Source of the DNA: a virus
IMG/VR virus record: IMGVR_UViG_3300037104_000756
Location: 34,163-98,162 of that record
DNA length: 64,000 nt
Strand: one strand, 5' to 3'
In this document: one piece after another, positions 3,540-42,679 of the stretch
Layout: the number at the start of each line of letters is the position of its first letter
Position numbering within the stretch: the first letter of the stretch is position 1
Notes under the pieces: model-generated
Told to the model about the DNA's origin: nothing
Database searches by the model: none
The model's input: only the letters and a program-made list of their open reading frames with translations
Made by a program: the position numbers and the translations under genes

Positions 3540-4162
3540 TACCAATCAATGGAGATGAAGCACTACATCTCGTTAACCAACAAGCTACGGAGATGGCTGC
3601 CGTGGAAGATAAATTCGAACGAGGTTATGCTCACCTGGGGTGGCTGTTGTTGGAAGTGGCGCAAATGCAGTATTGGCGCGTGCGGTATACCACGTTTCGA
3701 GAGTACCTCCGCAGTGTGTCGCTGATTTCAAAGAAGACGCCCGGACAACTTCACCGATACTTCCTAACGGTGCGCGACCTGAGCGACACATTCGAGCCCT
3801 CTCAACTAGAATTGATGGGAATCACCAAGGCGATGAAATTACGCGCTGCCAAGGACTACGCTATTGTCCTACCCTCCATCATCGTTACCGCCGCCCTCGA
3901 CCCCGCCGTAACTGTTCGGGAGTTGAAAAAAATCATTTCGGTGACGCTCAAGATGCCCGAGGAAGAAGGGGACTGGATGGACCTAGAATTTGAATTCATG
4001 GTCACCCCAGAGCAACGCGCGCTTATCACACAAGCGCTCGATGTCGCCATGCACACGGACCCGCTGACGAAGTCGACCATTTCGAAGTCGGCGCAGATGC
4101 TCGACGTTATGACGAAGTTCGCCCAAGAATTCCTTGGGGCGCACTCGGGAGATGGGAATTGA
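3538..4162 (+). CDS. Hypothetical protein
   Basis: Long ORF coupled to the RNR stop; no motif recognised; exact start uncertain. Confidence 0.6.
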
Positions 4163-27123: not shown

Positions 27124-27681
27124 TCATGATTGTTTTCTCTCTAGGCGATTTGGCGGCGTGATACCCCAGCCGAGACTTCGAAGCCACTCAGCTAGTTCTT
27201 GTTCGCTATGCCCTCGCGAATGATTGCCTTTTAACTGAATACTTAGGTTGGTTAGATCGTTGCAAGCGCGCCCGTTGATCCCATGGTGAACATCTTCGTT
27301 GGGTTTGAGCGGACGACCAAGGAACTGAGCCATAACATGTCGATGCTCTAGGACTCTTTTGCCATTATAGGTGATGACGCGGTATCCATGAGTATCCAGC
27401 GATCCTGCACCGAATGGCGCTTTTATGCCTCTGCTGCATCCTGTGGTGAGACTCGCAGTTACTACGTCGCGCCGTACGCGTCGGATTTTATCCATACAAT
27501 CCCAAGTGGGTTTGGCGGATCGCGTGCGTTTTCCGACGCCGATGACGCGCAAGTTTCCAAACACCATGTTAGTGAGATCGGGACTGTGGCGGCACATATG
27601 CTTTGCGGGTCGGAGACACGGGCGCGCTTCGGTCATGCACCCTCGTTTGATCATTTTGCCGCAAAGTGTTTTGGTCTTCAT
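27124..27681 (-). CDS. HNH homing endonuclease
   Basis: DLT...FG.L.V, HGYRVI, EHRHVM...LGRPL...EDVHH.INGR.CN.L.NL. Confidence 0.85.
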   Translation of the reverse strand: MKTKTLCGKMIKRGCMTEARPCLRPAKHMCRHSPDLTNMVFGNLRVIGVGKRTRSAKPTWDCMDKIRRVRRDVVTASLTTGCSRGIKAPFGAGSLDTHGYRVITYNGKRVLEHRHVMAQFLGRPLKPNEDVHHGINGRACNDLTNLSIQLKGNHSRGHSEQELAEWLRSLGWGITPPNRLERKQS

Positions 27682-28245
27682 GTTCGTAGTATATCACGAA
27701 GTATCCGCAAGAGTCCACTTCAGTTACTAAAGCGGCAGACTGTCCAGCACATCATAAATATTAGCCATATAGACCAGAACACAATCATCGCGGCCAGCTT
27801 GGTGGTAGCGGTGTGGGACCACCTGGATTAGGCATCGGAGAGCAGGCTGACGGAGGTAGGCCACCGCAAGGGTCGTACGGGCCATTTTGGGCGAGTACCG
27901 ACACTGTGCTGGACAACCCATAAATGAGCAGCCCGAGTGCTAGAACTGCAGAAAGACTAATCGTTGCAAGTGTAATTTTCATTGCGGCTCCTTTACTGAG
28001 AGAATGCGAACTTCAGGACCATCGTTGGCGGAGTCCGCATCATTGAACAGACTGTTGATGAGTGACGCCAACAGTGGCATCTGATACGCCGCCAGTGCGG
28101 CTACGATCATCGTTCGTTCACCAGAGGTGATTTCGATTTTACGTTTCATGCTGGTCTCCTAGTTTTCTTATCGGGATATTTTGCGAGTGCTTTTTCAACA
28201 AGGCGTTTGATATGGTTGAATTCCTTCACGGTCTTCCATGCGTTA

Positions 28246-28289
28246 AGGATACCAAGGACCTTGCGACAGTGCAATGGTACGAAGGTACT
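28246..28289 (-). promoter_or_regulatory. sigma70 promoter with GTAC box
   Basis: AGTACCTTCGTACC-A-TTGCAC-17-TATCCT. Confidence 0.7.
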
Positions 28290-28546
28290 GCCCGGATTAA
28301 GACTTTCTCTCGTATAGTGTAGGCAGGAGAATGCTATGGAGCGCTCACCCGTTTGCCCAAAATGCCTCTCGAAATTTTTAGACATCCGAGGGTGCATATA
28401 TCATGGTAAGACCGCCAGCACCATTTGTGAAGATGCATGGCATCGCGGCGCTGATTATAATCCTGACGTGCTAGTTCTGACTGCTCAGGACCGCGATTTT
28501 CTCGCAAGTGTGAAAGTTAGTTTGGAACCGCAAAGGAAGGCACTCC

Positions 28547-28930
28547 GTGGCTGAAACACAGAATGGTGTTGTGGTAGGGATCGAGGTATTAGCCGAGCGC
28601 ATCGCTAACCTCTCGAAAAAACTAGACGAGCAGATTGCGTTGTCCAAGACATCGGTCGATGCCGCTTTGACCGCTATTCAAGTCGCTAAGTCGGACCAAG
28701 AACGCACGGTGACCGTAGCTTTCGCTGCGAGCCAATCGGCTATTACGAAAACGGAACAATCACAGAAGGAGAGCAACCAGAATATCGGCATCCTGCAGAA
28801 CGACGTGGTCCGCCTCAAGGAATCGCAAGCGCAGTCGAGCGGTAACACGGGCGGCATGAAGGAAATGTACGGGTATATTTTTGCTGTCATTATGGTGATC
28901 GTGGATATATTCATGGGACTCCGCAAGTAA
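28547..28930 (+). CDS. Coiled-coil protein with C-terminal TM helix
   Basis: Heptads followed by YIFAVIMVIVDIF. Confidence 0.55.
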   Translation: MAETQNGVVVGIEVLAERIANLSKKLDEQIALSKTSVDAALTAIQVAKSDQERTVTVAFAASQSAITKTEQSQKESNQNIGILQNDVVRLKESQAQSSGNTGGMKEMYGYIFAVIMVIVDIFMGLRK

Positions 28931-28939
28931 AGGGGAATC

Positions 28940-29257
28940 ATGCATCCACGTTTAGATTTGGTAGATCAGATTATCCGCATTCTTGGCTGGCCCACACTGC
29001 TGGGTGGATTGGGCTGGGCGATCCGCAAATGGGATGACGGTCAACGTGACTTCAAAGTGATGGGGGAGAATACACGAATCGCGGTCGCAAAGATTGCTAC
29101 AGTTGAGACCGAGGTGCTGGCGATTAAAAACAACCACCTTGCTCATTTGCAGGAAGGTATCGTTGCATTGAGCGCAAGCAATGACAAAGCGGTTGAAATT
29201 TTGCAGACTATCAGTAAAGACATTGCGGTGTTGGTTGACCGCACACCACGCGCTTAA
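28940..29257 (+). CDS. N-terminal TM plus coiled-coil protein (holin-like, uncertain)
   Basis: ILGWPTLLGGLGWAI followed by NNHLAHL. Confidence 0.5.
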   Translation: MHPRLDLVDQIIRILGWPTLLGGLGWAIRKWDDGQRDFKVMGENTRIAVAKIATVETEVLAIKNNHLAHLQEGIVALSASNDKAVEILQTISKDIAVLVDRTPRA

Positions 29258-30633
29258 TCCAATCGGACTCCCCAGAACGCTCTTTTGCTAACAGGTGCAT
29301 CTGAGATCAGGCGGACGCAACTCGGGTCTGCCGTCACCACGAACCGCCTTCCTGTTGGAAATCTCACCTCGACTCTTAATGTTTGCGACAGAATATTCAT
29401 ACCCGTTATGGTGCCGCAGTAGTGAGCAGCGGGTCCTGTTAGAATCTCCACAAAATCTTGCGTGACTATCCTCGGGGCGGCAGGGCTATTATGATTTTGC
29501 ATCATCGTTTGAATCTCAGCATCAGGGATGGTGACTGCATGGAGAAAAACACCTTCGTCGGTATATATAGACGCCATTTCTGAGATGCCTCGAACCCGAG
29601 TTAGACCGCGAGTCAGGGTCGGTGATGTGCATCGCGCAAACAGATAATTGAACGCCAACTCTCCGTCATCGTTCGTAGGAGCAAAAATTTGCGCTGCTTG
29701 TTTTCCAAAGAGACGGCGTCCCTGGCTCTTGAGCATCGGAAAGATGAGGCTCATGCGGTGGTCAGACGATATTTCAAACATACACCAGGGCGTGTCTTGT
29801 AGCTTGCTTACGGCTCCAAACGATACCAGCGGGGAGTCATCACCAGGGGGTGCGGTAAATCGTAGCGTCTTGACACGCCGAGTTCGTGCGCGGCAGCGCT
29901 TACTGAGTCCTGCGCCTGTCAAGGACGCTTGATGCGTCAGGCTGCGGAGATACGCTCCAACAGCCACAGCCTTCACATCTTTGCTAGCCAACAGCGCGGT
30001 AATTGCTGGGCGGAATATTTTGCGGATCGCGGGAATCGGCGCTCCAACCGCTTTAGCGACCAGGGCATAGTTCTGACTGATGGCATACATCAGGATTAAT
30101 TGCGTCAGGCTGCCATACGGTGTTTCATCCACGCCTGCTTTTGTGATGATGGGACCGAGGACGAGACCTGTTGGCGCGGTACCGAGGAGAATCATGGACC
30201 CGAGAGTCTGTTCGATGATGCGCAAGTTCTGCCAGATGCGAGTTTGAATCTGCCCATGCGCTTGGGCGATGAAACTTTGAGATTTTTCGAGTAGATAATA
30301 TTCGATGAACAGTTCTTGAAACTCAGCGCGCATTTTTGAGATTAAGGGGAACAGTTTCTCAGGGTATTCGCGCGCGAATGTTTTGAACCCAATCAGGCTG
30401 CTGTTTTCCGGCAGCGCTTCAGCGGATAGGAGTGAATCCGAATCTTGGTTGCGCTCAAAGGATACGACGCTGGCGGCATTTGTCACATGGTCCCAGTAGG
30501 AGTATCCAGCCTCAGAGACTGACCGATATGTTTTGGCTTTGGCTTTCTTCCACGCCGCTGCGTAGTCTGAATGGCTGATCACACCATACATTCGACTGCG
30601 CGCACCCCAAGATATTGTGACCTTATTCGACAT
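29254..30633 (-). CDS. Transcription factor: sigma70 region 4-like HTH + second HTH + NusG-like NGN and KOW domains
   Basis: LISKMRAEFQELFIEYYLLEKSQSFIAQAHGQIQTRIWQNLR; NYALVAKAVGAPIPAIRK; W...QIFAP...NYLFAR...VRGI...IPDAEI; DFVEILTGPAAHYCGTI...LRVEV..TGR. SD GAGGAG before the Met at 30633. Confidence 0.75.
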   Translation of the reverse strand: MSNKVTISWGARSRMYGVISHSDYAAAWKKAKAKTYRSVSEAGYSYWDHVTNAASVVSFERNQDSDSLLSAEALPENSSLIGFKTFAREYPEKLFPLISKMRAEFQELFIEYYLLEKSQSFIAQAHGQIQTRIWQNLRIIEQTLGSMILLGTAPTGLVLGPIITKAGVDETPYGSLTQLILMYAISQNYALVAKAVGAPIPAIRKIFRPAITALLASKDVKAVAVGAYLRSLTHQASLTGAGLSKRCRARTRRVKTLRFTAPPGDDSPLVSFGAVSKLQDTPWCMFEISSDHRMSLIFPMLKSQGRRLFGKQAAQIFAPTNDDGELAFNYLFARCTSPTLTRGLTRVRGISEMASIYTDEGVFLHAVTIPDAEIQTMMQNHNSPAAPRIVTQDFVEILTGPAAHYCGTITGMNILSQTLRVEVRFPTGRRFVVTADPSCVRLISDAPVSKRAFWGVRLD

Positions 30634-30967
30634 GCTTCTCCTCTGAAGGTGGTATTTCGACACGCGCTTTTATTTTTCGACGCCTATTGGCAATGCGGAC
30701 GTATCGACGGACAAGGATTTCAAACACGGCTCCATGGGCAAGTTCAGGCTCTGCAACATGAAGCATTTCATGCACAAGCGTGTGCCGCCATCCTCGGATG
30801 TCTTTATTCAAAACGATAATGGGGCGGGCGAACATAGTGCCGTCGTGTAGCGTGACACCACGGCAAGTGGGTATGGTTGCATCCTCGACTAAGACGATTG
30901 TCGCAGCAGGCAATCGTCCCAGCCAGATAAGGTGGTTAAGTCTCCGATACTCTTGCTGTGGGGTCAC
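30623..30967 (-). CDS. SprT-like zinc metallopeptidase
   Basis: Y..LN...W.G.LP...TLVHEMLHV...HG..F. Confidence 0.75.
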   Translation of the reverse strand: MTPQQEYRRLNHLIWLGRLPAATIVLVEDATIPTCRGVTLHDGTMFARPIIVLNKDIRGWRHTLVHEMLHVAEPELAHGAVFEILVRRYVRIANRRRKIKARVEIPPSEEKHVE

Positions 30968-31305
30968 CTGACCAATCTACCAGAAATTCTAATCCGCTGT
31001 CAACTCTTTTTGTTCCCAGCAATCATGCATAGTGTTGACGTACCCCTGCGTGACAAGGTCCCGCTCGAACACCGCGATCTCTTTTTGAGCGTGGATCAAC
31101 TGAATGTGGTACTGCGCCCAAGTGCTGCGGTGAATAGCGCGCGTATTCTCCGCAAAGTGGCGCTCGATGCCGTTCCGATATTGCTTAGGCTGTACATTCC
31201 CCGCGCAGCCCTGTTCGTCGAATCCCTGCTCATCCCTGACCGATAGGCGACCAGGGAGTTTGGGCGGGAATAGTTTTGATAGCAAGTGGCTGATCCATGC
31301 AGGCA

Positions 31306-31746
31306 TCATGGGGTCTCCTCTAGTTGGATGTTGAAAGTTGTTGATTCAAGATTGAAGAATATAACCGGGTAGACGAAAACGGCAGTCAGACCTTCACCCA
31401 GGTAGTCTAGTTGGTCCGCCGCAGCGGAGGAAAGGTCCAAGATACGATGTAGGCGAAGGTTGGGACCACGATCAGTAATGGTCACAACGACGGATTCGCC
31501 ATTCTTAATGTTTAACACCCTAAGCTCTGTGCCAAACGGAAAGTACCAACTGGCTGCGGTTAGCTTGTGACAATCAAAGCGCTGCCCGTTCGCCATCTTC
31601 CGACCTTGACGGTCCTGTCCATACCATGAAGCGGTACCCATATACTGCATTGTCGCGCGGTGCTTTATGGGTGCTGCAGACGTTGAGGGGGTCCACAGCA
31701 GGCTCGCTACGATCAGCAAACCGAAAACTCGTAGTATAGTCTGCAT
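31306..31746 (-). CDS. rlpA: RlpA-like lytic transglycosylase (DPBB domain), exported
   Basis: Signal peptide; GTASWYG..MANGQRFD..LTAA..PFGT.LRV.N..NG.SVVV.ITDRGP..RILDLS. Confidence 0.9.
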   Translation of the reverse strand: MQTILRVFGLLIVASLLWTPSTSAAPIKHRATMQYMGTASWYGQDRQGRKMANGQRFDCHKLTAASWYFPFGTELRVLNIKNGESVVVTITDRGPNLRLHRILDLSSAAADQLDYLGEGLTAVFVYPVIFFNLESTTFNIQLEETP

Positions 31747-31792
31747 AGTTAAATCTCCTTTGCGTCAATTTTGTTCAACGGTGCGCGATGTT

Positions 31793-32020
31793 TTATGCAG
31801 CCCTCCTGCGTGCTAGAGTTTTCCTGGCCTGCAGGATGTGTGCGCAGGCGGTACGCCGAAAGAGGAAGTGTTCGCAACTGCAAGCCCAGCTTCGACCTTG
31901 CTTCGTCACCGTGTGATTAACTCGACCAGGGCGCGAGCGGGATTGAATGGTGCCATACGCGATGACGCCCTTGCGGGGTGCGTCGGCGGTTTTTAGACTC
32001 AGGACTCTTGGTGTTTTCAT
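31793..32020 (-). CDS. SWIM zinc-finger protein
   Basis: S.SRPG..H.V...W.CSC..F......CAHI. Confidence 0.75.
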   Translation of the reverse strand: MKTPRVLSLKTADAPRKGVIAYGTIQSRSRPGRVNHTVTKQGRSWACSCEHFLFRRTACAHILQARKTLARRRAA

Positions 32021-32026
32021 GTTGAA

Positions 32027-32070
32027 AGTGTACCAATTCCCGACCCATCGGTCAAGGGTACGAAAGTACT
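32027..32070 (-). promoter_or_regulatory. sigma70 promoter with GTAC box (SWIM-RlpA-SprT-sigma4/NusG operon)
   Basis: AGTACTTTCGTACC-C-TTGACC-17-TACACT-6-ATG. Confidence 0.75.
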
Positions 32071-32113
32071 AATATTCAAGACTTTTCAATTCATAGATAT
32101 ACGAGGGATTTCG

Positions 32114-32437
32114 ATGCGGTGGTTCTGGACATTGTTGTTGTGTCTACTGTTGATTGGATGTGTTTCTGCGCCTTCTATCACCACCTTGACCGTCACAACC
32201 GAAAGTCTTCCCGGGGCTACAATCGGCACTATCTATGCCCAGCAACTCACAGCCAGTGGTGGAGTCCCCCCCTACACCTGGAACGTTGCTGCTGGAAATT
32301 TGCCGAATGGCGTCACGTTGAACGCGTCGGGGGTTCTGGCAGGAAGAGCTACAGAATCAGGCTCGTTCACTTTTATGATTCAGGTTACAGATTCGGCGTC
32401 ATCAGTTTCTACTATTAAAATAGGGGGCGGACAGTGA
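32114..32437 (+). CDS. Lipoprotein with a single putative Ig (He_PIG-like) domain
   Basis: Lipobox LIGC; TTESLP.A..G..Y...L.ASGG.PPYTW...G.LP.G.TL...G.L.G. Confidence 0.8.
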   Translation: MRWFWTLLLCLLLIGCVSAPSITTLTVTTESLPGATIGTIYAQQLTASGGVPPYTWNVAAGNLPNGVTLNASGVLAGRATESGSFTFMIQVTDSASSVSTIKIGGGQ

Positions 32438-33099
32438 AATTTCTCAAATGGTTTCTATTCTTGGTTCTACTTTTTCCTTGTGTCGTATCGGCGCAGGATA
32501 AGGCAACAAAAACACTCACTCTTGTGGTCAACGCAGGGGCAGTGTCCATCACGACGCCAACAATTCCTAACGGCATGGTGGGGCTGGTATACCAAACCAC
32601 TATCACCGTAACGGGAGGGTTGGCTCCGTACACATTTTCCGTGTCCTCTGGCACACTTCCAGCAGGGATGGCTATAGCGTCAGGCACTGGCGTTCTCTCT
32701 GGGACACCGATAACTGCAGGCACCAGCACTTTTACCGTGCAAGTTACGGATGCTGAAACTCCAGCGGTGATTGCTTCGCAGTCATACACGATCACCATTC
32801 TTGCGCAGTTGGCGATTACAACGAATAGTCTGCCAGCCGCCAACATTGGAGTCGGATATAGCGCTACGATCACGGCTTCGGGCGGCGTAGCACCATATAC
32901 ATTCGCGGTCACGACTGGGACACTGCCAGCGGGGCTTACGTTGAATTCTGTGACAGGTGTGATATCTGGGACACCGACAAGCGCGGGGTCGTTCACAATC
33001 ACCATCACGGTAACCGACTCGGCTAGCAACATAGCGATGTTGGATATCAAAACAACCATTGAGGTCGCGGCAGTCTTTGTGCTAGACTTCAACGCATGA
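32434..33099 (+). CDS. Exported protein with two putative Ig (He_PIG-like) domains
   Basis: Signal peptide VSA|QDK; two GG.APYTF...GTLPAG...GV.SGTP repeats. Confidence 0.8.
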   Translation: MKFLKWFLFLVLLFPCVVSAQDKATKTLTLVVNAGAVSITTPTIPNGMVGLVYQTTITVTGGLAPYTFSVSSGTLPAGMAIASGTGVLSGTPITAGTSTFTVQVTDAETPAVIASQSYTITILAQLAITTNSLPAANIGVGYSATITASGGVAPYTFAVTTGTLPAGLTLNSVTGVISGTPTSAGSFTITITVTDSASNIAMLDIKTTIEVAAVFVLDFNA

Positions 33100-33440
33100 A
33101 AAATAACTGGCTCGGTCTAATCGTCTTGGCTCTCGCGCTGGTGGTTAATCCTACCCGCGCGGGGGCTCAAGATAAGACTTCGAAAATTTTCATCATCATC
33201 GTCGGGCACATAGTGACGATTGGATGGACCGCTTCGACGACTCCAAATGTCACATACAACGTCTATGTGAGTTCTGTTCGAGGAGGACCATATTTGAAGA
33301 TCGGTCACACGGCGGGTACATTTTTCGGGGACATTGACGGCACGTCAGGCAACACCTATTTTTATGTGATCACTGCGGTAGACGCTGCAGGGAATGAGAG
33401 TATCAATTCAACTGAAGTGTCGGTCGTCCTCCCAAATTAG
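33096..33440 (+). CDS. Exported FN3-domain protein
   Basis: Signal peptide AGA|QDK; W.AS...YNVY...Y.YVITAVD..GNES..S. Confidence 0.8.
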   Translation: MKNNWLGLIVLALALVVNPTRAGAQDKTSKIFIIIVGHIVTIGWTASTTPNVTYNVYVSSVRGGPYLKIGHTAGTFFGDIDGTSGNTYFYVITAVDAAGNESINSTEVSVVLPN

Positions 33441-33443
33441 TTC

Positions 33444-33472
33444 TTGACACTTAACGCAACATCGGGTAAAGT
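33444..33472 (+). promoter_or_regulatory. sigma70 promoter of the tmRNA gene
   Basis: TTGACA-17-TAAAGT. Confidence 0.8.
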
Positions 33473-33477
33473 GCAGG

Positions 33478-33900
33478 AGTCGAGTTTAAGATCGACACGG
33501 TGGAGGCAGAAATCGTGCCCCAAAAGCTGGTCGTGCAGTTAACACGCGCTGAGCGAGTTCCGTGACGCGAATAGGACGGCGACCTTAAATTACGTTCGTA
33601 TAAAGCCTATGGCTTCTCAGAAAGACGAGGGTTCGACTCCCTCCGAGTCCACCCTGCCACACAGCACGGATGTTCCGACGCCCAAAGGGCTGACGATCTA
33701 ACCACTGTGTGGTACGGTGGGCTCGACTCGGTTTCGATTTTTGAGATAGTGGTGGGGCTACTTCGAACCGTCCTGACAACGACGTTAAAAGAGATCAAAC
33801 CAATAAATGCGATGCCTAAAAAGCTAGCACAGGTGGTTATGTTCGCGCAGCGCCCTGCGGCATTCGTGCCCCAGGCACTCGCGGCATAGTCGCCGGGGGA
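33478..33900 (+). ncRNA. ssrA: Circularly permuted (two-piece) tmRNA
   Basis: T-arm GAGGG-TTCGACT-CCCTC and acceptor 3' strand CGAGTCC-ACC (33627-33653) lie upstream of the 5' strand GGGCTCG (33719), giving G3.U; tag frame 33809-33889 ends in ALAA*. Confidence 0.92.
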
Positions 33901-33931
33901 GGGAGCCCGAAAGGTTCTCTCCTTTCATTTT
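33896..33931 (+). terminator. Intrinsic terminator after the tmRNA
   Basis: GGAGGGAGCC-CGAAA-GGTTCTCTCC then TTTCATTTTT. Confidence 0.75.
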
Positions 33932-33944
33932 TCAGGAGAATTTT

Positions 33945-34175
33945 ATGAGTCATCATTCTTTAGATGGATTCACACCCATCAGTTCGGACCACATTGACGG
34001 TGCAAAGTACAATTCCATGGATCAGAAGCTGACGGTGAGGTTTAAAAACGGGTATGTATATGAAGTTCACGCCGTGTCGCCCAGGGACCACCAAGAATTC
34101 ATGAACGCGCCGTCACAAGGCAAGCACTTTCACACATGCTTCAAGGGAAACTACCACATCGAACGCGTCAAGTAG
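33945..34175 (+). CDS. KTSC domain protein
   Basis: SS..I....Y......L.V.FKNG.VY....V......F.NAPSQGKHF....KG.Y. Confidence 0.85.
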   Translation: MSHHSLDGFTPISSDHIDGAKYNSMDQKLTVRFKNGYVYEVHAVSPRDHQEFMNAPSQGKHFHTCFKGNYHIERVK

Positions 34176-36107
34176 TTTTGAGAATGTCGGTGACGGGAGT
34201 CTCGCGAATCACGTCGAGGAAACTTCGCGGATGCATCCAACATCGGAAGTCCTTCGCATCTGAGATGTAGATGCACCACAAGTGGTCATCCCCCAGTATT
34301 TGGATGCGGCAATTTGGATGCGTCTCGCAGTAGGCGGATATTTCATCAGCTTCCGCTTGTGTGATTGGTTCGCTCATGGCTATTCTTCCCCCAGAGTCTT
34401 TTGTAAGACGAGAGTCTCGCGGCATCCTGGGCAAGAGACTTCCAAATGATATGTGTATCCGCAGCACTCGCATTCATCCGCCCACATCGAAAACTGTTCA
34501 GAGGCGAGGACGAATTCATGCCCGCATGTGCATTTTACTGTAAGTTTCATGGAGCCCTCCTAGTCGTTCTCTGGTCGAGCATGGGAAGTAGCAGATTTCT
34601 CGGTTATCATCGAGCACTGGGAGTCGCAGCCATGGGCATCGTCATCACAGCCGCAGTGCCACGCGGGACCGAAGATGCCGTCCCACCAAAATGGTTGGCA
34701 GCCCTTCGCAACAGCAAGCATGAAAATGCGGTCGTGATCCATTAGTCGTTCTCCGGTCGCGCCAACTCACCATACACGATGGTCGGTTCGGTCGCGGGCT
34801 GGTGAACGGATACCGCAGCGTTGAACGAGAATACAACTTCCTGGTCGCCGTCGAGGCGCGCCAACATTCTAGCCAATTTCTGACGCATCTGGCTGACTGT
34901 ACATGCAGCATGCAGGGTAAATTTAAGTGTTGCCATTTTCTCTCCTCTTTAGATATAGATACCTGCGGATTTGCCGCACGGCTGGGCTGTATCAATAGTG
35001 ATCCAGCCCAAGGTGCGCACAGCTTTGTAAGAAAAAGCTACGGCTCGATCAACGCAGTCTTCGCAGGCATGGAGGGTGCCGTAGGGGCGAATGACGACGG
35101 TACGGTCAGAACATTTTCGCCTTCCGCAGAGATCACACATATCATGGCTGCACATTTTTGTCGACCTCCTTGACATTCTTCGGAGCGGCGTTGATTCGTG
35201 TTTCAGCCATCGCGATGGTTTGTTTTGCTCGGCGAATTTCGCTGCGCCAGTAGGCTACATTCGATGCCCATGTTTTGTGTTGCTTTTCTTTACATCCCAG
35301 CCGTCTCTTCCGATTAGCCTCATATTCGGTTACGAGGCGCGCGGCATCGGCCAGGGCTCCCAATTGCGTGAGAAACAAATCCTCTTCGTCAACGTGCCAA
35401 CCGCCGCAGGAGTATGTGACGTGATCTACGTCGTCCTGTCTGTGCAGTTCGATTCCAGTGATGGTGGCTTCCTCGGTGCGGGCGACAAACGTATAGGACT
35501 GGATTTTTCCTAGCGATCCGTCCCAGCCATGCTCGCAGCAAACGCACGGGATTGAAACCTGGGACTCGTCGCCCAGAATCACGCGAAGCCGCGCACTGCC
35601 TAAACATTCTGGACAGATAGTCTCGATGGCTTCTAGTCCTGCCTTCGCTCGCCAAACTTTATCGCCGATGTTGAATTTCATTGGTCTCTCCTCATGGTGG
35701 TAAACACCCACGCCAAAAACAGAAGGTCACAGATAAAAGCAACTCGCAGGGACCACAATAAAATCTGTTGCATGGTGTCCATGTTTCACCTCGCATTTGA
35801 ACGGTATCACACAACTAGCCGAAAGTCAATCTCGCAGACCGACCTCTTGCTCCAGACGATACAGCATGCTGAAGTGGGGACCCGTGTCTCCGCAATTACC
35901 ACAGCAACCGTCTACATTGCTGTACCGGGACCCGCTCTTGTTCAAATCGGCGTCCAACTCGGCGCGCAGTTTTTTGAATACCACTGCCAACTTCGCCTGC
36001 TCGCTCTTGGTGAACTTTACAGTCATTGGAGCCTCCTCAAATTTGCCAGCCGCTTGGCCTTGATCGATGCGCAGGATACGATACTTTCGCAGAGCGTATC
36101 CATTCAC
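34168..36107 (-). other. Cluster of small minus-strand hypothetical ORFs (several Cys-rich)
   Basis: Coupled ORFs such as 34742-34936, 34949-35176, 35142-35680 and 35826-36107. Confidence 0.55.
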
Positions 36108-36376
36108 ACTCTTGGCTGTTGCTGGCCTTCTCTTGCCGACTCTTTCGGTGTCGAGTGGTCCCGCCCGCTCAGAGTCTTTTGTGAGCCTCCTACCTCGCCA
36201 GGGTTTCAGCCCTTCAGGACTTTGGCTGTCCTGTACTGCGGATCGCTGGCGTTAACCATTCGATCTCGTTGGCGTTCTTAAAGGTAGTGCGTGCGGCTCA
36301 GAGTCTGTCGAGAGGGCTCTAAGCTGCGCCCAAACCTACAGGCTTTGCTGGGTTGCTCTTAGTGGCCCTCTCTAAC
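36108..36376 (-). ncRNA. Putative structured leader or small RNA
   Basis: About 270 nt with no convincing ORF directly after a GTAC-box promoter; several nested hairpins. Confidence 0.4.
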
Positions 36377-36382
36377 AAAACC

Positions 36383-36426
36383 ATTCTGCCAGGATCACTC
36401 GGTTTTGACAATGGTACGAAAGTACT
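36383..36426 (-). promoter_or_regulatory. sigma70 promoter with GTAC box
   Basis: AGTACTTTCGTACC-A-TTGTCA-17-CAGAAT. Confidence 0.7.
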
Positions 36427-36876
36427 GATTTTCTCTAGTACGCGTTTTTTGTGCTTGACAAATCAACACAGAGGTGAGACGCTCTTTAGAGAGGTGCAAT
36501 ATGATTTTCCTAACAGGTGTCGTGTTGCGTCCCCATGTTTTGCAAGTCCTCGTAGCAGCCTTGGTTTTCTGGCTTGCGGTAGCTACCTGGGTGGCTACGA
36601 AGGTGGGGCGCTTTTTGCGTGAGGAAGAGCGGTTGTTTGGCTTTTCTGTCCCAGTTTGGATGCGGAGGAAATAATGGGAGAATGTTGCAATAGTTGCGGT
36701 GCTTTTGCCCCCCAGGCATCTTTGCGCAAGTGTCAGTATTGTCCGACGTTGATTTGTGACCGTTGTCGAGGTCCTCATGAACCAGTCTGCCAGCAGATGC
36801 AAAAGAAGCGTGCGTTTGGATTGGGTCCAACGGTTCGACCGAGGGATTAAGACTTTTTGATTTAAAGTATACGGTC

Positions 36877-38907
36877 ATGTCTCTAACACTAATCCAACTC
36901 GCGACGGATAACTTTACTCGCGCTGACGCTAACCCCATCAGTGGAAGCTGGGATACGGTAGGCGGCGCGGCAGCTTGGCAGATCAAAAGCAACATGGCGG
37001 AATCCACCGTCATCGGAATCAATGCAAATTTAAGCATCTCAACGGCTGTTGTTTGGCCTGCGGATCAGTACAGCGAAGTAACTGTTGGTGTTAGTCCTAT
37101 TAATACAGACTTGGGTGGACCTGCTGTTAGATTTGCTGCGGGGTCTAAAAATGGCTACATCTTATTCTATCAAGGTGGATCGGGACCGATCACTGTTCAA
37201 ACAGTTATTACTCCAGGTTCAGGAACAACCATCGCTTCTTCCGGCACACTGAATGTCTCTATTGGTGATGTGCTCCGATTGGTAGTAATTGGAAATCAGT
37301 TAAGTGCTTATCAGAATGGAGTAGAGATAATTGCTCCATTTACCGACAACACTTTTGCGACAGGTTCTCCGGGGCTCTCCTCCTATATACAAACTGGCAC
37401 CACAGGAAACATTCGATTCTCTTTGTGGTCTGGCGGTTCTGCCAGTATTACTCCTCCTCCTCCTTCACCCGCCAGCATCTCGCCAACGAGTGACGAGCAG
37501 GGGTTCACTGGCAATGTCACTGTAACGGGTACCGCATTTGATTCTTCTGGAACTTCGACGCTGTCATTTTCTGGCACAGACGTTACGGTTAATTCATACG
37601 GCACGCGCAACGCGACGACCATCACCGCCAGCATTACCATTACCAGCGGAGCGGCACTCACTGCGCGAGACGTGGTTATCACCAACGTAGATTCGCAGAC
37701 AGGAACCCTGGTTGCGGCATTTACGGTCACATCTGGTGCTCCGTCTCCAGCCAGCGTTTCTCCGACCAGTGCCGAACAAGGATACATAGGCAATATCACT
37801 ATTGCAGGAACGAATTTTAGCACAGGAACTCTGTCATTCAGTGGCACTGGAATTACAGTCAACTCATATTCGGTCCAGAATACGACGACCATCACCGCCA
37901 ACATTACGATTGCGAATAATGCAACATTATCTGCCCGAGATGTCGTCATCACGAACCTCGATACTCAGACAGGAACCTTGACGGCATCATTTACAGTAAC
38001 TAGCGGCGCACCATTACCTGCGAGCATTTCGCCAACGAGTGACGAGCAAGGTTTCACAGGGAATGTGGTTGTTACAGGTACCAACTTTGATTCAGGCGGA
38101 ACTTCAACTTTGTCGTTCAGTGGCGCAGGCGTTACGGTCAATTCATACGGCACGCGCAATACAACAAATCTGACCGCCAACATCACCATCGCACCCAGCG
38201 CCGCGTTAACAGCCCGAGATGTGATCGTCACCAATGTTGATACGCAAACAGGCACGCTAGCGGCTGCGTTCACAATTACCCCGTCCCCGGTCATTATCAG
38301 CGTGAGTCGGTTGTCTGGGTCGGTGGGCATGTCAATCACTATCACTGGGACCAGTTTCGGGGCAACCCAAGGAACCAGCACTGTCACATTCAACGGGGTT
38401 ACCGCAACGACGACTAGTTGGAGCAACACAAGCATAGTGGTGACCGTACCTGTTGGAGCGACCACGGGCAACATCGTGGTGCGTGTATCCGGTGTGGATA
38501 GTAATGGCTCACTCTTTACCATCACTATCCCAACACGGCCACCCGCGTTTATTCCGCTCCCTTTTAGCAAACGTCTAACCGCCTCGGCAGCGGTATTCGC
38601 GTGCATCGGCATCACGTCTCCACAAGGCGCGCCCAGGCTGACATCAAACGTGCCTATTCTCGTCGCGCTGCAATTGGAGTACAGCCAGTTAATCAACATT
38701 TACCCAGTGTTGATCCACCAGGACACAGCGAACAATCGGGCTGATTTGTATGCAGCCATCGCCAAGGCTACGACGACTGTGGAAAACTTAAATACAACCA
38801 TCGAGTCTATGATGGCGGTGGGCGACGCGGGATTTCAATTGCGGGACATGCAGATTGTTGTGGCCAACGCCTTGACCGCTCTCCACAATGTAGAGATCGA
38901 TGAGTGA
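36877..38907 (+). CDS. Lectin-like N-domain + three tandem Ig-like repeats + IPT/TIG domain protein
   Basis: DNFTRAD...DQYSEV; three ~90-aa PASISPTS.EQG repeats; G..ITITGTSFGATQGTSTVTFNG...WS.TSIVVTVP.GATTG. Confidence 0.75.
   Translation: MSLTLIQLATDNFTRADANPISGSWDTVGGAAAWQIKSNMAESTVIGINANLSISTAVVWPADQYSEVTVGVSPINTDLGGPAVRFAAGSKNGYILFYQGGSGPITVQTVITPGSGTTIASSGTLNVSIGDVLRLVVIGNQLSAYQNGVEIIAPFTDNTFATGSPGLSSYIQTGTTGNIRFSLWSGGSASITPPPPSPASISPTSDEQGFTGNVTVTGTAFDSSGTSTLSFSGTDVTVNSYGTRNATTITASITITSGAALTARDVVITNVDSQTGTLVAAFTVTSGAPSPASVSPTSAEQGYIGNITIAGTNFSTGTLSFSGTGITVNSYSVQNTTTITANITIANNATLSARDVVITNLDTQTGTLTASFTVTSGAPLPASISPTSDEQGFTGNVVVTGTNFDSGGTSTLSFSGAGVTVNSYGTRNTTNLTANITIAPSAALTARDVIVTNVDTQTGTLAAAFTITPSPVIISVSRLSGSVGMSITITGTSFGATQGTSTVTFNGVTATTTSWSNTSIVVTVPVGATTGNIVVRVSGVDSNGSLFTITIPTRPPAFIPLPFSKRLTASAAVFACIGITSPQGAPRLTSNVPILVALQLEYSQLINIYPVLIHQDTANNRADLYAAIAKATTTVENLNTTIESMMAVGDAGFQLRDMQIVVANALTALHNVEIDE
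37464..38290 (+). repeat. Three tandem ~270-bp coding repeats
   Basis: Near-identical peptide units; units 1 and 3 are most similar. Confidence 0.8.
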
Positions 38908-39449
38908 GGAGGAGTTTATGTACATCGAACTATCGAGAGAAGACATGCGCGATATCAAGGCTGGGCTGCGGTACGGGTGGGCGTTACAATTACGAACAGA
39001 GGACAGGGACCGCCTCGCCAATTTAGCCGCTCGTATTACGGAAGCGGAGTCTCATTTGCGCATGCCGACCAAGCTTCCACGGTGGATAAGAGAACAGGGG
39101 TTCTAAATGGCTCCTCGACTATGCCCGCATTGTGCTCGCGTGTTGGATGGTGAGCATGAATTTCGAATTGGCTGTTGCCTTGTGTGTAGGCATTATGGTT
39201 TACTGTGTGGTGTGTGGCCTAATCAAATGAAACCAGGAGAAAAAAACATGAGCATCGATTTGACTGACTCGCAACTTGCTCGGCTGATTTATTTGTGTTC
39301 GAAGATTGCAGAGGTAGTGCTGACCGTACCCGCGCCGCCCCAGGGAATGGGCGGCGAACTGGAGTTGGCGAAAAGCTTACGGAGCAGCATCGAAGCGCAA
39401 AACGGTGTGCTCCTCGAACTTGGCGCGCTGTTGCGATAGCAGGTCGCGG

Positions 39450-41710
39450 TTAAACTGGAAAGGTTGCGCGAAGCGCCAATGCATCTAGGTACTCCATCAC
39501 CGCTTCGATTTTCGCGAGATTCTCGCGATGTTCTTTGACTGCGATAAAGATTGCCTCGGGACCTTGAGGATAGTAGTCGCGACCGTGAGGACCCGCGTCC
39601 TGCAAGGTGCGACATGCGTCGTGGAGCGCAATATACGCAACGCTCCATTGTTCGATCAGGGACTCTTTACTGGTTCCATTCAAATGAATTGTAGGGTATA
39701 TCATTGTTTGCTCCTCGTGTTCTCATCACGGTTAAACTGTAGCCACGTCTTCCCATTCTCCAATTCCCACGCGTCATTAGCGAATAACAGAGCCCCGAAG
39801 GGTTGCCCTGCCAGCAGGCGGCGCTCTGCGGATTTCCGCAGTTCAATAGCTTGCTTGGCTGAGTAGTTGATAGGCGGTTTGCTCATGATCGGTCCTTTGG
39901 GGTGCAGAACATTACGAACACCAGCACCAGTAGAAAAACCTCGACGGTGATTCTCAGAATAGGTAGCAGGTTCATTATCTATGCCCTGCCAATCTTGATG
40001 AATTCGTTTTCGGCGGCGGCGGCATAGACCACGCCGTTATCGTACTGCACGGTCAGGGTGTGAACTTTCAGTTTGCCTGAGAACGCCGAGGTGCCGATTA
40101 CGGTACCTGCAAAGTGGGTCAGGTGGTTCCGAACGCGGTCGCCAATTTGCGGGCGAATGGTGTTGCGGCTGAAAAGCGATTTAAGATTCATCGGATGCCT
40201 CCCATGACGAAACCATAAAGCTTTTGATTCTCGTGGTGGACCTTGAGTGCGTAGGCAACCATGCGCTTTTCGAATGATTCGGTTACGTTGGGATTCTGGC
40301 GCACACGTCGACGCATGTCGTTCGCGATAGTTTCATCTGCCGTGCCGACGTGAAATCTGTTGACGATAACTTCGATGCTCGCTTTGGGGAGTTTGGTCAT
40401 TTGGTTGATCTCCATGTCCATCATTATGGGTTATCCACTCGGCTAGGGCAATGGTACCTTAGTACCTACTTGGGCGGTACTCTCCCTGTAGAGGATCACC
40501 TCCCGCGAGACGTAATCGAATACACAAAACGTCCCCTCGCCCGCCTTCGCCAGTTCTCGCCACATTTGACGGATCGCGCCATCCGTGGGTTTAACACGCA
40601 ACCCATTCGCTCTAATTCGAAAGGCAAATTGCCATCGTTTAATTTCGACGGCACCTGATAGTTTCATGATTGTGACTCCCTTCTCCACTGCGCCATAGCC
40701 CATTCGATAGCCTCGCGCTTCAGTTCGAAGCGCGCCACTTCCTTGTCGCCCAGGAGGACCAGCCAGCGCTTAATGCCGCAGCGCCAAACATCTTTGATGC
40801 GGTAGTGGGGGTCCATTACCTGTCCCATTATCGCACCGCCAGGGGTTGTGGGGCATGTTTGCTAACACCACCGCAATTCAGGCAGCGCCCGCCAAAGGTC
40901 ATGTCGTGTGCAGTGCAGGGTCGCGAGGGTGTTGGGAATGTGGCGCGGACCTCCTCACCCATTGCTGCGTTGCGTTGATATCGGAATTGCTCGTAAGGGT
41001 TCATGACTTCACCTCTGGTTGGTGGCGATAGCATAGCGTTGATCCCTTGACGGCTTGACATTTTTCCAGTTCTGGATGCTTCACACATTCGAGGCAGTGG
41101 TGCGGCCACGGCAGGAGGTGACCATCGTATTGCACCTCTGCGTAAAGTTCGATCAGCTTCTTGATGCCGTCTGCGAACGCTCCGTTATTGTCGGCGTCCC
41201 AGCCGCCGAAGTGGAAACCACCCTGGAGGCTGTTCGTGATATAGAGGGAGGGTGTGCCTGCCGATTCGCCGTTCGATGCGCGAATGACGCGGAATGAGAT
41301 ATTCCAGCCGCCGATGTTGGGCGTGTTAACGGTTTCGAAGCGGCACAACTGATGTGCGTGATAGGTTGAAGGGACGCCTGCGCGCGAGAGTTGGCGCTTG
41401 ATGGTTTGCAGCCGATTATAGATGCGGCTGTTGATTTGCTTGGTGCTGAGTCCTGCTGACATTATCGCACCGCCTTTGCGCGGTTGTTGCGGGACTGCAC
41501 GCGCTTGAGAATGTTGAAATACTGACCCATCAGTTCGTTGTGACGCTGGGCGTTGGGGTTGGTGCTGGAGAAAACCACGAATCGGGAAGAAGTTTCAATC
41601 CGTTCATGTTGGCATGCCGCGCTCCACGCTTCGTGAATTTTAGTCTCCAGAGCTTTCAGTTGGCTGATGTCTTTGTTGGTCATCTGTGTTGCCTCCATTT
41701 GATGTAACAA
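39450..41710 (-). other. Cluster of small minus-strand (early-type) hypothetical ORFs
   Basis: Tightly packed 60-150 aa ORFs downstream of GTAC-box promoters. Confidence 0.55.
40423..40466 (-). promoter_or_regulatory. sigma70 promoter with GTAC box
   Basis: GGTACTAAGGTACC-A-TTGCCC-17-CATAAT. Confidence 0.7.
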
Positions 41711-41753
41711 GTATGCCGAATATCCTTGTGCAGCGCAATAGTACGACGGTACT
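41710..41753 (-). promoter_or_regulatory. sigma70 promoter with GTAC box
   Basis: AGTACCGTCGTACT-A-TTGCGC-17-CATACT. Confidence 0.7.
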
Positions 41754-42570
41754 ACGACCCCAGCATATGGCTGGGGCGTCGCTCTGCGAGCCGATTCGGG
41801 GAGAGATTCACCGCATTGCCTGTACTCTGACCCTTGGCGTATCCATCACCGTTCCGATTCGAACTGCCGATACCGCGCGACCGTTTCGTTTTCCCGGCTA
41901 GGAAATTTTGCACAGCCAGGGCATCGCGATTGATGTGAACAATTGCATTTGCTGAGACGGCAGCCTGCGCTTTGAGTGTTTCATCGTAGCGTGTCTGCAA
42001 TCGAGCAGCAATGGCGTCGCCGAATCCATTCTTCCAAGATTCGCGGTACTCCTTCATCCAGCGGTTGAATGCGGCTTTTGCCCATGTGGGGATGTTATAA
42101 TCGCTGATCATATTGCGCATGTTGAATTTCAAACCTTGAATTTCGCGGTCGGCGCGAGCAGCTTTTGCAACCAACTCCTCGCCCAACTCGACCAGATGCA
42201 AGTAGAGAATTTTGGCAAGCTGGCGGTCAGATGTGCGACCGACAAAGAAAAACGAGGTGCCGCGAGACGAAGTGTTATTCACCACTTGGCAGGAGTTCAC
42301 GGCAGCAACAACCCGAGCGATTTTTTGCCGCCAGTACACTTTTGTGCGATTCCCGCCTCGGTTGATTTCTTTTCCGTCGACGCACTCCCAATCGATAGGT
42401 TCTCCATCTTCACGCGCCTGGAAGTCGACTTCGGACATATCTAGTTTGTGCGCGGTCAACAGGTCCTGAATGCGCGCCGCGAAAGCTTCGGCTTCCGCTA
42501 AACTGCCGATGGCGCGGGCAGACTGTTCATGCGTAATCAGCTTCCTGAGTTTTTCAATCATTGGATTCAT
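41752..42570 (-). CDS. DUF2786-like domain protein
   Basis: IEKLRKL.......GS.AEAEAF..RIQ.LL..H.L; F.G...D; R.S...GF...I..RL; GY..G. Start at 42570 or 42585. Confidence 0.75.
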   Translation of the reverse strand: MNPMIEKLRKLITHEQSARAIGSLAEAEAFAARIQDLLTAHKLDMSEVDFQAREDGEPIDWECVDGKEINRGGNRTKVYWRQKIARVVAAVNSCQVVNNTSSRGTSFFFVGRTSDRQLAKILYLHLVELGEELVAKAARADREIQGLKFNMRNMISDYNIPTWAKAAFNRWMKEYRESWKNGFGDAIAARLQTRYDETLKAQAAVSANAIVHINRDALAVQNFLAGKTKRSRGIGSSNRNGDGYAKGQSTGNAVNLSPNRLAERRPSHMLGS

Positions 42571-42592
42571 TGGTGTGTTCTCCATGTCCGCC

Positions 42593-42636
42593 AGTATGGG
42601 GCTGAGGTGAAATTTATGCAATAGTACGAAGGTACT
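42593..42636 (-). promoter_or_regulatory. sigma70 promoter with GTAC box
   Basis: AGTACCTTCGTACT-A-TTGCAT-17-CATACT. Confidence 0.75.
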
Positions 42637-42650
42637 GTTTTCTTTTTTGC

Positions 42651-42679
42651 TTGACAAAGGCATCATTCGCTGGTAGATT
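42651..42679 (+). promoter_or_regulatory. Divergent sigma70 promoter
   Basis: TTGACA-17-TAGATT with TG extension. Confidence 0.65.

What the first reader, a model, noticed from the sequence alone, without database searches (positions are those of the whole stretch)
28246..42636. Six minus-strand sigma70 promoters share an RGTAC-N4-GTACY palindrome exactly 1 nt upstream of -35
Seen at 28276, 32057, 36413, 40453, 41740 and 42623. Each palindrome is followed by 1 nt, a TTGnnn box, exactly 17 nt and a -10 (TATCCT, TACACT, CAGAAT, CATAAT, CATACT, CATACT). Known: sites centred near -42 to -44 are the class II activator position, and the motif resembles the cyanobacterial LexA box (RGTAC-N3-DGTWC). 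Inference: one regulon, activated or repressed by a dimeric phage or host protein and possibly SOS-linked, covers the minus-strand accessory clusters. At 28246-28318 and 32027-32097 the box lies back-to-back with an RGACT promoter.
Basis: partly seen in the sequence, partly recalled or inferred. Interest (0 to 1): 0.72.

Follow-up and report, generated by a model that had tools for sequence, protein, structure and literature searches.

The report
Shared control box on phage promoters
A short two-part DNA box (GTAC, four bases, GTAC) sits at a fixed distance from ordinary promoters in several unrelated peat-soil phages and in their likely Acidobacteriota hosts.

Summary
The window has six GTAC-N4-GTAC boxes (0.1-0.35 expected), all on the minus strand. 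Each is followed by 2 nt, TTGnnn, 17 nt and a -10. The whole 98-kb phage has a seventh box. It lies inside the spacer and -10 of a consensus promoter (TTGACA-N17-TACCAT) in front of an erf-ssb-uvrD-nuclease-primase operon.

Both layouts recur in relatives. Across five phage records, 20 of 28 boxes are "type A" (box centre about -43.5, abutting the -35). Five are "type B" (box across the spacer and -10). The type-B erf promoter is kept in all 11 further distinct close relatives whose held locus reaches that promoter. An unrelated 43-kb phage fragment carries ten type-A promoters. Seven of them are leaderless, with the ATG exactly at the predicted start.

The phage RecA is closest to Terriglobia (Acidobacteriota) RecA, and the sample is peat. 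Terriglobia genomes carry the same composite promoter (80 hits against 33 for the control), including sites kept in front of the same genes in several genomes.

None of the five phage records has a LexA or S24 gene, and the scans of this phage's ORFs found no regulator domain. Terriglobia lexA and recA promoters share a different element.

Best reading: this is a host transcription-factor site used by the phages, probably activating at type A and repressing at type B. The factor is unidentified, and no transcript data exist.

The parts
28246..28289 (-). Type-A promoter P1: box 28276-28289, -35 TTGCAC 28269-28274, 17-nt spacer with TGG, -10 TATCCT 28246-28251. It drives a small conserved 56-aa gene (27979-28149), further small ORFs and an HNH endonuclease gene (27124-27681).
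   Evidence: The orthologous promoter in front of the homologous small gene in G004 (65039) has the same layout.
32027..32070 (-). Type-A promoter P2: box 32057-32070, -35 TTGACC, -10 TACACT. The ATG of the 75-aa ORF 31793-32020 lies 7 nt after the -10, so the start is leaderless. The operon continues with a DPBB (RlpA-like) gene and reaches the 459-aa gene 29254-30633.
36383..36426 (-). Type-A promoter P3: box 36413-36426, -35 TTGTCA, -10 CAGAAT with TGG. It is followed by a roughly 270-nt ORF-free structured leader (36108-36376), then the genes 35826-36107 and 35142-35681.
40423..40466 (-). Type-A promoter P4: box 40453-40466, -35 TTGCCC, -10 CATAAT, then 7 nt and ATGGAGA (start plus ribosome site). 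It drives four small genes, 39450-40400.
41710..41753 (-). Type-A promoter P5: box 41740-41753, directly after a terminator-like hairpin. -35 TTGCGC, -10 CATACT. It drives the 73-aa gene 41462-41683 and downstream genes.
   Evidence: The homologous 59-aa gene in G004 also follows a type-A promoter.
42593..42636 (-). Type-A promoter P6: box 42623-42636, -35 TTGCAT, -10 CATACT, then ATGGAGA. It drives the DUF7168 gene 41752-42570.
   Evidence: Orthologous promoters in G001 share the layout.
28301..28318 (+). Divergent RGACT-N8-TATAGT element next to P1, the phage's other promoter class. The distance from the box varies (10-13 nt in P1, P2 and the G004 orthologue), so it has no fixed register with the box.
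32080..32097 (+). Divergent RGACT-N8-CATAGA element next to P2.
42651..42679 (+). Divergent consensus sigma-70 promoter TTGACA-N17-TAGATT (with TG), 14 nt from the P6 box. It opens the rightward block of small genes.
   Evidence: G001 has the same 14-nt arrangement.

Best explanation
GTAC-N4-GTAC is the binding site of a dimeric transcription factor. The factor is most likely encoded by the host, an uncultured Terriglobia/Acidobacteriota bacterium, and is used by several phage lineages. The box occurs in two fixed registers relative to ordinary sigma-70-type promoters.

Type A covers all six window sites. The box ends 2 nt upstream of the -35 TTG. Its centre is about -43.5, on the same DNA face as sigma region 4. 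A factor there can bind together with RNA polymerase, and it probably activates or boosts these promoters. They drive clusters of small accessory, probably early, genes whose transcripts have no leader or a very short one.

Type B is the seventh site, outside the window. The box lies in the spacer, and its second GTAC supplies the TAC of the -10 of a near-consensus promoter for the erf-ssb-uvrD-nuclease-primase operon. A bound factor would block polymerase there, which means repression.

Shown: the motif, both registers, their conservation, start codons at the predicted start sites, and the presence of the motif in host-like genomes. Inferred: that a protein binds, that it is host-encoded, and the sign of regulation at each class.
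For: Six sites against 0.11-0.35 expected.

Seven, five, one and eight boxes in four related phage records, against 0-1 for the reversed control.

Of 28 boxes in five phages, 20 are followed by N2-TTGnnn-N17/18-nAnnnT and 5 lie inside TTGAC(A/T)-N16/17-TAC(C/T)AT.

The arms are invariant while the central 4 nt and the promoter spacers differ, so these are not recent copies.

The type-B erf promoter is kept in G000, G001 and G004 and in 11 further distinct contigs found through RecA.

Genes behind the type-B site: ERF, SSB, UvrD-type helicase, PD-(D/E)XK nuclease, primase-helicase.

An unrelated 43-kb phage fragment (G160, GC 59%, no protein shared with G000) has ten type-A promoters. Seven have the ATG exactly 7 nt after the -10. 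P2 in the window is leaderless in the same way.

Host link: the phage RecA is 67-70% identical to Terriglobia/Acidobacteriota RecA, which are its best bacterial matches. The DNA comes from peat.

GTACN4GTACYRTTG gives 80 hits against 33 control hits in 151 Terriglobia genomes, many with a -10 at 17 nt.

Sites are kept in front of the same gene in several host genomes: a 103-aa leaderless gene and a small secreted repeat protein, 4 genomes each. In the host recA-PBP spacer the box itself is kept in 5 genomes, but without the fixed type-A register.

No phage regulator seen: no HTH, RHH, LexA, S24 or sigma-r4 domain in about 118 of 138 ORFs or in six-frame scans. No small protein family is shared by all motif-bearing phages.
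Against: No factor has been identified. No regulator family recurs next to the host sites.

The enrichment in host genomes is modest, about 2.4-fold over a reversed-pattern control.

A cultured Terriglobia phage, Tunturi_3, has only three intragenic boxes.

Small phage DNA-binding proteins often escape Pfam and PHROGs. G001 and G004 do encode a roughly 60-aa HTH protein that G000 lacks.

Several type-A promoters have good -35 hexamers and TGn-extended -10 elements, so they may not need an activator. The sign of regulation at type A is therefore uncertain.

A host repressor sitting on the replication operon from the moment of infection requires a further, unseen step that removes it.

No transcript data exist.
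Confidence: 0.5

Rival explanations
1. The box is bound by a phage-encoded early regulator that was not detected. It shuts off the strong early type-B promoters (replication and recombination genes) and switches on type-A 'middle' promoters. This would be a classical temporal switch like phi29 p4, lambda cI or Mu Mor.
For: The site density is far higher in the phages (7 per 98 kb) than in host genomes (about 0.5 per 5 Mb). The logic is natural: consensus promoters carry the operator, and weaker promoters carry the upstream site. Most small ORFs have no recognisable domain, so a novel DNA-binding protein could be hidden among them. G001 and G004 have a small HTH gene in the rightward early block.
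Against: That HTH gene has no homologue in G000, G002 or G003. No small protein family is common to all motif-bearing phages. G160 shares no protein with G000 yet uses the identical promoter. The same composite promoter sits in front of conserved chromosomal genes in Terriglobia.
Confidence: 0.27
2. The box is the host LexA (SOS) operator, so these phage genes respond to DNA damage.
For: The sequence fits the cyanobacterial LexA consensus and the 4-N4-4 geometry of Gram-positive LexA boxes (PMC3091678). The type-B site controls erf, ssb and a uvrD-like helicase, and the phage carries recA, all typical SOS themes. Host-like genomes have a box just downstream of recA.
Against: No LexA or S24 gene in five phage records. 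The likely hosts are Terriglobia. Their lexA promoters (5 of 5) and about ten recA promoters share TTYGC-N6-TTCGCC in the -35/spacer region, and none has an exact GTAC pair; two lexA upstream regions show only degenerate GTAC-like sequence. The same scan did recover the known GAAC-N4-GTTC boxes upstream of recA in Bacillota loci. A centre at -43.5 is not a repressing LexA position. The host genes behind the box (PilZ proteins, a secreted repeat protein, a PadR-permease operon, a transpeptidase) are not SOS genes.
Confidence: 0.06
3. The paired GTAC sites make the promoters sensitive to GTAC-specific DNA methylation. This would work as an epigenetic timer, or would modulate factor binding, rather than being a plain protein operator.
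For: In type B the A of the second GTAC is the -11 A of the -10 hexamer, a base whose methylation is known to affect promoters such as IS10 pIN (own knowledge). An earlier scan note (e1-3888429) describes GTAC-built promoters of a methyltransferase gene. GTAC is under-represented in the phage: 262 observed against 383 expected on equal base use.
Against: No N6/N4 or Dam-type methyltransferase domain in any of the five phages. Methylation control would need one GTAC only, not an invariant pair with a fixed 4-nt gap and a fixed register to the -35.
Confidence: 0.04
4. The boxes are target sites of a site-specific recombinase or another non-transcriptional protein, or they are copies of a mobile promoter cassette.
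For: G001 and G004 encode a small tyrosine recombinase directly behind a box. One host genome carries three identical copies of a box-plus-promoter repeat.
Against: G000 has no recombinase. The spacers and flanks of the six window promoters are unrelated, so they are not copies. The strict register to the -35 and -10 is a transcriptional signature.
Confidence: 0.03

Closest known systems
Lambda cI at OR2: class-II activation of PRM (site centre -42) combined with repression of PR
   Same: A dimer site abuts the -35, on the same DNA face as sigma region 4. The same box elsewhere overlaps core promoter elements, so one protein could both activate and repress.
   Different: No cI-like, HTH_3 or S24 gene in this phage. 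The box is a short 4-N4-4 element rather than a 17-bp operator. There are no tandem cooperative operators. The factor is probably host-encoded.
Phage Mu Mor and C activators (dyad centred at -43.5 of the middle and late promoters; own knowledge)
   Same: The same centre position relative to the start site, and a dyad-symmetric site on phage promoters read by the host sigma-70 polymerase.
   Different: The Mu promoters lack a -35, whereas here TTG is invariant. No regulator domain turned up in the Pfam or PHROGs scans. The Mor family was not searched by name.
CRP/FNR-type class-II promoters (for example the FNR box TTGAT-N4-ATCAA at -41.5; own knowledge)
   Same: A 5-N4-5 palindrome placed next to or over the -35. 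It belongs to a host global regulator and is used at many unrelated promoters.
   Different: The centre lies 2 bp further upstream and the -35 TTG is retained. The arm sequence differs. No CRP/FNR protein has been linked to the box.
LexA boxes of cyanobacteria (RGTACNNNDGTWCB) and Gram-positive bacteria (GAAC-N4-GTTC), and phages that borrow host LexA (CTXphi, GIL01, 186 tum; own knowledge for the phages)
   Same: The sequence and geometry of the box. The idea of a phage using a host regulator. The recombination and repair genes behind the type-B site.
   Different: The likely host clade keeps a different element on its lexA and recA promoters. The type-A position does not repress. The host targets are not SOS genes.

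Membership tests
Sigma-70-type promoter | A -35 TTGnnn and a -10 nAnnnT separated by 16-18 nt | tested here: met
   All six window sites have a 17-nt spacer. 20 of 28 boxes in five phages show the same.
Sigma-70-type promoter | Transcription starts about 7 nt after the -10 | tested here: inconclusive
   No RNA run holds the stretch. Indirect support: the ATG lies exactly 7 nt after the -10 in P2 and in 7 of 10 G160 promoters, and ATGGAGG (start plus ribosome site) lies there in about 12 others.
Class-II (activator next to the -35) promoter | Dimer site centred near -41.5 to -43.5 with fixed spacing to the -35 | tested here: met
   The box ends exactly 2 nt before TTG in 20 of 20 type-A promoters in five phages and in 10 of 10 in G160. 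The centre of -43.5 assumes the start site inferred above.
Class-II (activator next to the -35) promoter | Promoter activity depends on the bound factor | not testable with these tools
   This needs reporter assays or in-vitro transcription. The -35 quality ranges from TTGACA to TTGCCC, so dependence cannot be read from the sequence.
Repressor operator overlapping the core promoter (type B) | A palindrome inside the spacer and -10 of an otherwise strong promoter, kept in orthologous promoters | tested here: met
   TTGAC(A/T)-N8/9-GTAC-N4-G|TAC(C/T)AT stands upstream of erf in G000, G001 and G004 and in 11 further distinct contigs.
LexA/SOS box | Sequence match to a described LexA consensus | tested here: met
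   All six sites fit RGTACNNNDGTWCB, the consensus quoted in PMC3091678.
LexA/SOS box | The same box occurs upstream of lexA and recA in the host clade | tested here: not met
   Five Terriglobia lexA promoters and about ten of 21 acidobacterial recA promoters share TTYGC-N6-TTCGCC instead, and none has an exact GTAC pair within the regions examined (about 250-300 nt upstream for lexA, 400 nt for recA). Two lexA regions have only degenerate GTAC-like sequence. Caveat: the true host is inferred, not known.
LexA/SOS box | A LexA or cI-type (S24) repressor encoded by the phage | tested here: not met
   PF01726 and PF00717 gave no match in six-frame searches of five phage records, two of which are 98% complete.

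The most novel reading that the evidence does not exclude
A so-far unknown global regulator of Terriglobia recognises GTAC-N4-GTAC. Several unrelated soil phage lineages have built their immediate-early promoters around it, while placing the same box as an operator on their replication and recombination operon. A single early phage product that removes the host factor would then switch early genes off and replication genes on in one step. That would be a host-factor-based temporal switch not described for any phage, found in a phylum where almost nothing is known about transcription control.
Probability: 0.2. Interest if true: 0.75.

Novelty: new member of a known kind. Interest (0 to 1): 0.52.

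Why it matters
Acidobacteriota dominate peat and tundra soils, yet almost nothing is known about their gene regulation or about how their phages time gene expression. This box gives a concrete handle that can be tested. It is a 12-14-bp site with two exact promoter registers. It is present in an abundant uncultured phage family (many 93-100-kb contigs), in an unrelated phage, and in front of conserved host genes. It can be used to fish for the regulator, to predict early genes in acidobacterial phages, to help link phages to hosts, and to design promoters for these hard-to-engineer bacteria.

Tried and rejected
Relatives were therefore fetched with the search for related loci and the genome search.
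- Single-protein scans of viral contigs with the 459-aa and DUF7168 proteins found nothing. megablast of the region against cultured phages found nothing, and tblastn gave only distant hits.
- Pfam on 20 small rightward ORFs found no regulator. Pfam and PHROGs on 68 further ORFs found no DNA-binding family.
No Sigma70_r4 match was found in six frames.
- DUF7168 as the regulator was rejected. Distant DUF7168 loci show no comparable palindrome in front of the gene, and the literature gives no function for it.
- Names of the cluster members of phage RecA and DUF7168 gave no host clue.
- No regulator family recurs next to the host sites. Only PilZ recurs, three times.
- No RNA holder was listed for the stretch, so no reads were laid.
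- The cultured Tunturiibacter phage Tunturi_3 does not use the box.
- No paper mentions GTAC-N4-GTAC in any of the spellings tried.
- The NN version of the host scan was confounded by IS-like repeats. It did show that the two bases after the box are Y-R in about 60% of the non-repeat hits, by hand count.
- Register-shifted control scans were not run.
- In one search two roughly 60-residue sequences printed were typed into a script. This should have been done by reference. The result was negative.
Full report
**Observation.** The window is bases 34163-98162 of a 98,162-bp virus record. RGTAC-N4-GTACY occurs six times, at exactly the coordinates given. Shuffles gave a mean of 0.11 and never more than 2. 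The 12-mer core gives the same six sites against 0.35 expected. Several have a TGn extended -10. Three were also picked up by the generic promoter scan. About 6-7 nt after the -10 comes one of two things. One is an ATG that opens the first gene (P2, ORF 31793-32020). The other is ATGGAG(G/A), followed 7-9 nt later by the start codon (P4, P5, P6). The predicted transcripts therefore have no leader or a very short one. The two RGACT-N8-YATARN elements lying back-to-back with P1 and P2 are present, but their distance from the box varies between 10 and 13 nt. Each of the six promoters heads one of the minus-strand gene clusters between 27 and 43 kb.

**The seventh site and the second layout.** The whole genome has one more box, 7.8 kb before the window at genome position 26348. 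It lies inside a near-consensus plus-strand promoter, TTGACA-N17-TACCAT. The box fills the second half of the spacer, and its second GTAC provides the TAC of the -10. The genes behind it encode an ERF-family annealing protein, SSB, a UvrD-type helicase, a PD-(D/E)XK nuclease and a primase-helicase. A bona fide RecA gene lies 4 kb upstream.

**Conservation in phages.** Homologues of the DUF7168 protein, used as an alignment, led to four related records, G001 to G004. These carry 7, 5, 1 and 8 boxes, against 0-1 for the reversed control. Of the 28 boxes in the five phages, 20 have the type-A layout (box, 2 nt, TTGnnn, 17-18 nt, nAnnnT). Five have the type-B layout and three have neither. The arms never vary. 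The central four bases are mostly A/T-rich and occur in either orientation, and the promoter spacers differ from one another. The sites are therefore not recent copies. RecA-based loci from viral contigs show the type-B erf promoter in every close relative whose locus reaches it. That is 11 further distinct contigs, some of which have a second type-B promoter further downstream.

**An unrelated phage uses the same promoter.** An exact scan of viral contigs with GTACN4GTACTATTGC returned mostly single, chance-level hits. It also returned one 43-kb fragment, G160 (GC 59%), with ten boxes. All ten are type A. Seven have the ATG exactly 7 nt after the -10. G160 shares no protein with G000, and only three distant structural proteins with G002 and G003.

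**Host.** The best bacterial matches of the phage RecA (67-70% identity) are almost all Terriglobia/Acidobacteriota genomes assembled from metagenomes. The DNA is held in peat and permafrost metagenomes. No cultured relative was found.

**The box in host-like genomes.** In five of the acidobacterial recA loci, a GTAC-N4-GTAC lies in the short spacer between recA and a transpeptidase gene. About 0.003 per locus would be expected by chance. Here the box lies 32-47 nt upstream of the -35, without the type-A register.

The composite pattern GTACN4GTACYRTTG occurs 80 times in 47 of 151 Terriglobia genomes, against 33 for the reversed pattern. Three of those genomes (G084, G106, G115) are unpublished. 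They contribute 7 of the 80 hits and none of the control hits. No specific claim rests on them.

Many hits have a plausible -10 at 17 nt. Groups of hits sit in front of the same gene in different genomes: a 103-aa leaderless gene (4 genomes), a small secreted repeat protein (4), PilZ-domain proteins, and a probable PadR-type regulator plus permease operon (2). One genome has the box-plus-promoter in three identical repeat copies. The factor's gene could not be found by adjacency.

**Is it LexA?** The box does fit the published cyanobacterial consensus. However, no phage record encodes a LexA DNA-binding or S24 domain. In five Terriglobia genomes the lexA promoter carries TTCGC-N6-TTCGCC in its spacer. 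About ten acidobacterial recA promoters carry the same element (TTYGC-TTTTNN-TTCGCC) at a different offset from the -10, which is how a true operator behaves. Neither set has an exact GTAC pair. Two of the five lexA upstream regions contain a degenerate GTAC half-site or a one-mismatch pair further upstream. The method works, because the same recA loci from Bacillota show the known GAAC-N4-GTTC box. I therefore rate LexA as unlikely. The caveat is that the host is inferred.

**Phage-encoded factor?** Pfam scans of about 118 of 138 called ORFs and a PHROGs scan of 68 of them gave no DNA-binding family. So did the six-frame scans with single Pfam families. A roughly 60-aa HTH protein exists in G001 and G004 but has no homologue in G000, G002 or G003. 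No small protein family is common to all motif-bearing phages. Together with G160 and the host sites, this favours a host factor. It does not exclude a novel small phage protein.

**Mechanism.** This part is inferred. With the start site 7 nt after the -10, the type-A box spans -50 to -37 and is centred at -43.5. That is one helical turn upstream of the -35 centre. This is the class-II geometry of lambda cI at PRM, of Mu Mor and C, and of FNR-type activators, where the factor and the polymerase bind together. Spacing that is invariant at many non-orthologous promoters argues for a stereospecific contact, meaning activation, rather than simple occlusion. Tandem type-A promoters in front of small leaderless genes (G160, and P4 to P6 here) look like an early region, which must work with host proteins alone. 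The type-B geometry means repression.

My estimates are as follows:
- A protein binds the box: about 0.85.
- The protein is host-encoded: about 0.6-0.65.
- Type A is activating: about 0.6.

How the type-B block would be lifted is unknown. An early anti-factor or titration of the factor are possibilities.

**Other readings.** Methylation control is unlikely, because the phages encode no methyltransferase domain and a strict pair of sites would not be needed. A recombinase target or a mobile cassette is also unlikely.

**Verdict.** This is a real, conserved promoter-linked operator and a new regulon motif of a known kind. It is shared between phages and their likely acidobacterial hosts. The SOS interpretation is not supported.

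Noticed in passing
window 36108-36376 (minus strand): The transcript predicted from P3 begins with about 270 nt that contain no ORF of 40 aa or more. This stretch folds far better than shuffles (-102 kcal/mol, z = -5.2, 0 of 200 shuffles as good). It has no Rfam match and no homologue in the relatives held. It is a candidate structured leader or small RNA.
   Followed up: partly
G000 genome 21629-33618 (L054:1629-13618), upstream of the window: The phage carries a full bacterial-type RecA (Pfam 435 bits) together with ERF, SSB, a UvrD-type helicase, a PD-(D/E)XK nuclease and an NrS-1-like primase-helicase. RecA homologues of 70-90% identity occur on many metagenome contigs of 93-100 kb, so this is an abundant uncultured phage family.
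   Followed up: partly
L135-L139 near position 1440-1490; L055-L059 and L070-L073 about 130-170 nt before recA: Terriglobia lexA and recA promoters share TTYGC-TTTTNN-TTCGCC. This is a direct repeat with an 11-bp period, reminiscent of the alphaproteobacterial GTTC-N7-GTTC SOS box. It is probably the acidobacterial LexA box. The paper search turned up no description of one.
   Followed up: partly
G160 (L358-L360), 35.7-43.3 kb: Nine type-A promoters in 7.6 kb share not only the box but also a TCCTCCTC-rich spacer, and nearly all drive leaderless small genes. This looks like the early region of an unrelated acidobacterial phage.
   Followed up: partly
G004 74453-74947 and G001 3095-3589: A short tyrosine recombinase (about 180-200 aa) lies directly behind a box in two relatives but is absent from the window's phage. 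It is unclear whether these phages can integrate or only resolve dimers.
   Followed up: no
window 33594-33889: Rfam confirms a circularly permuted (two-piece) tmRNA gene in the phage (67 bits against a threshold of 47). It lies behind a TTGACA-N17-TAAAGT promoter at 33444.
   Followed up: partly
window 32114-33440 versus G004 70008-71321: A three-gene module that is on the plus strand here, next to P2, lies on the minus strand in G004. The accessory region is therefore rearranged between relatives.
   Followed up: no
L168-L171 (host loci): A conserved 103-aa Terriglobia protein of unknown function, whose N-terminus begins MxRYxxLLGRR, is encoded by a leaderless gene behind a type-A promoter in four genomes.
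   Followed up: no
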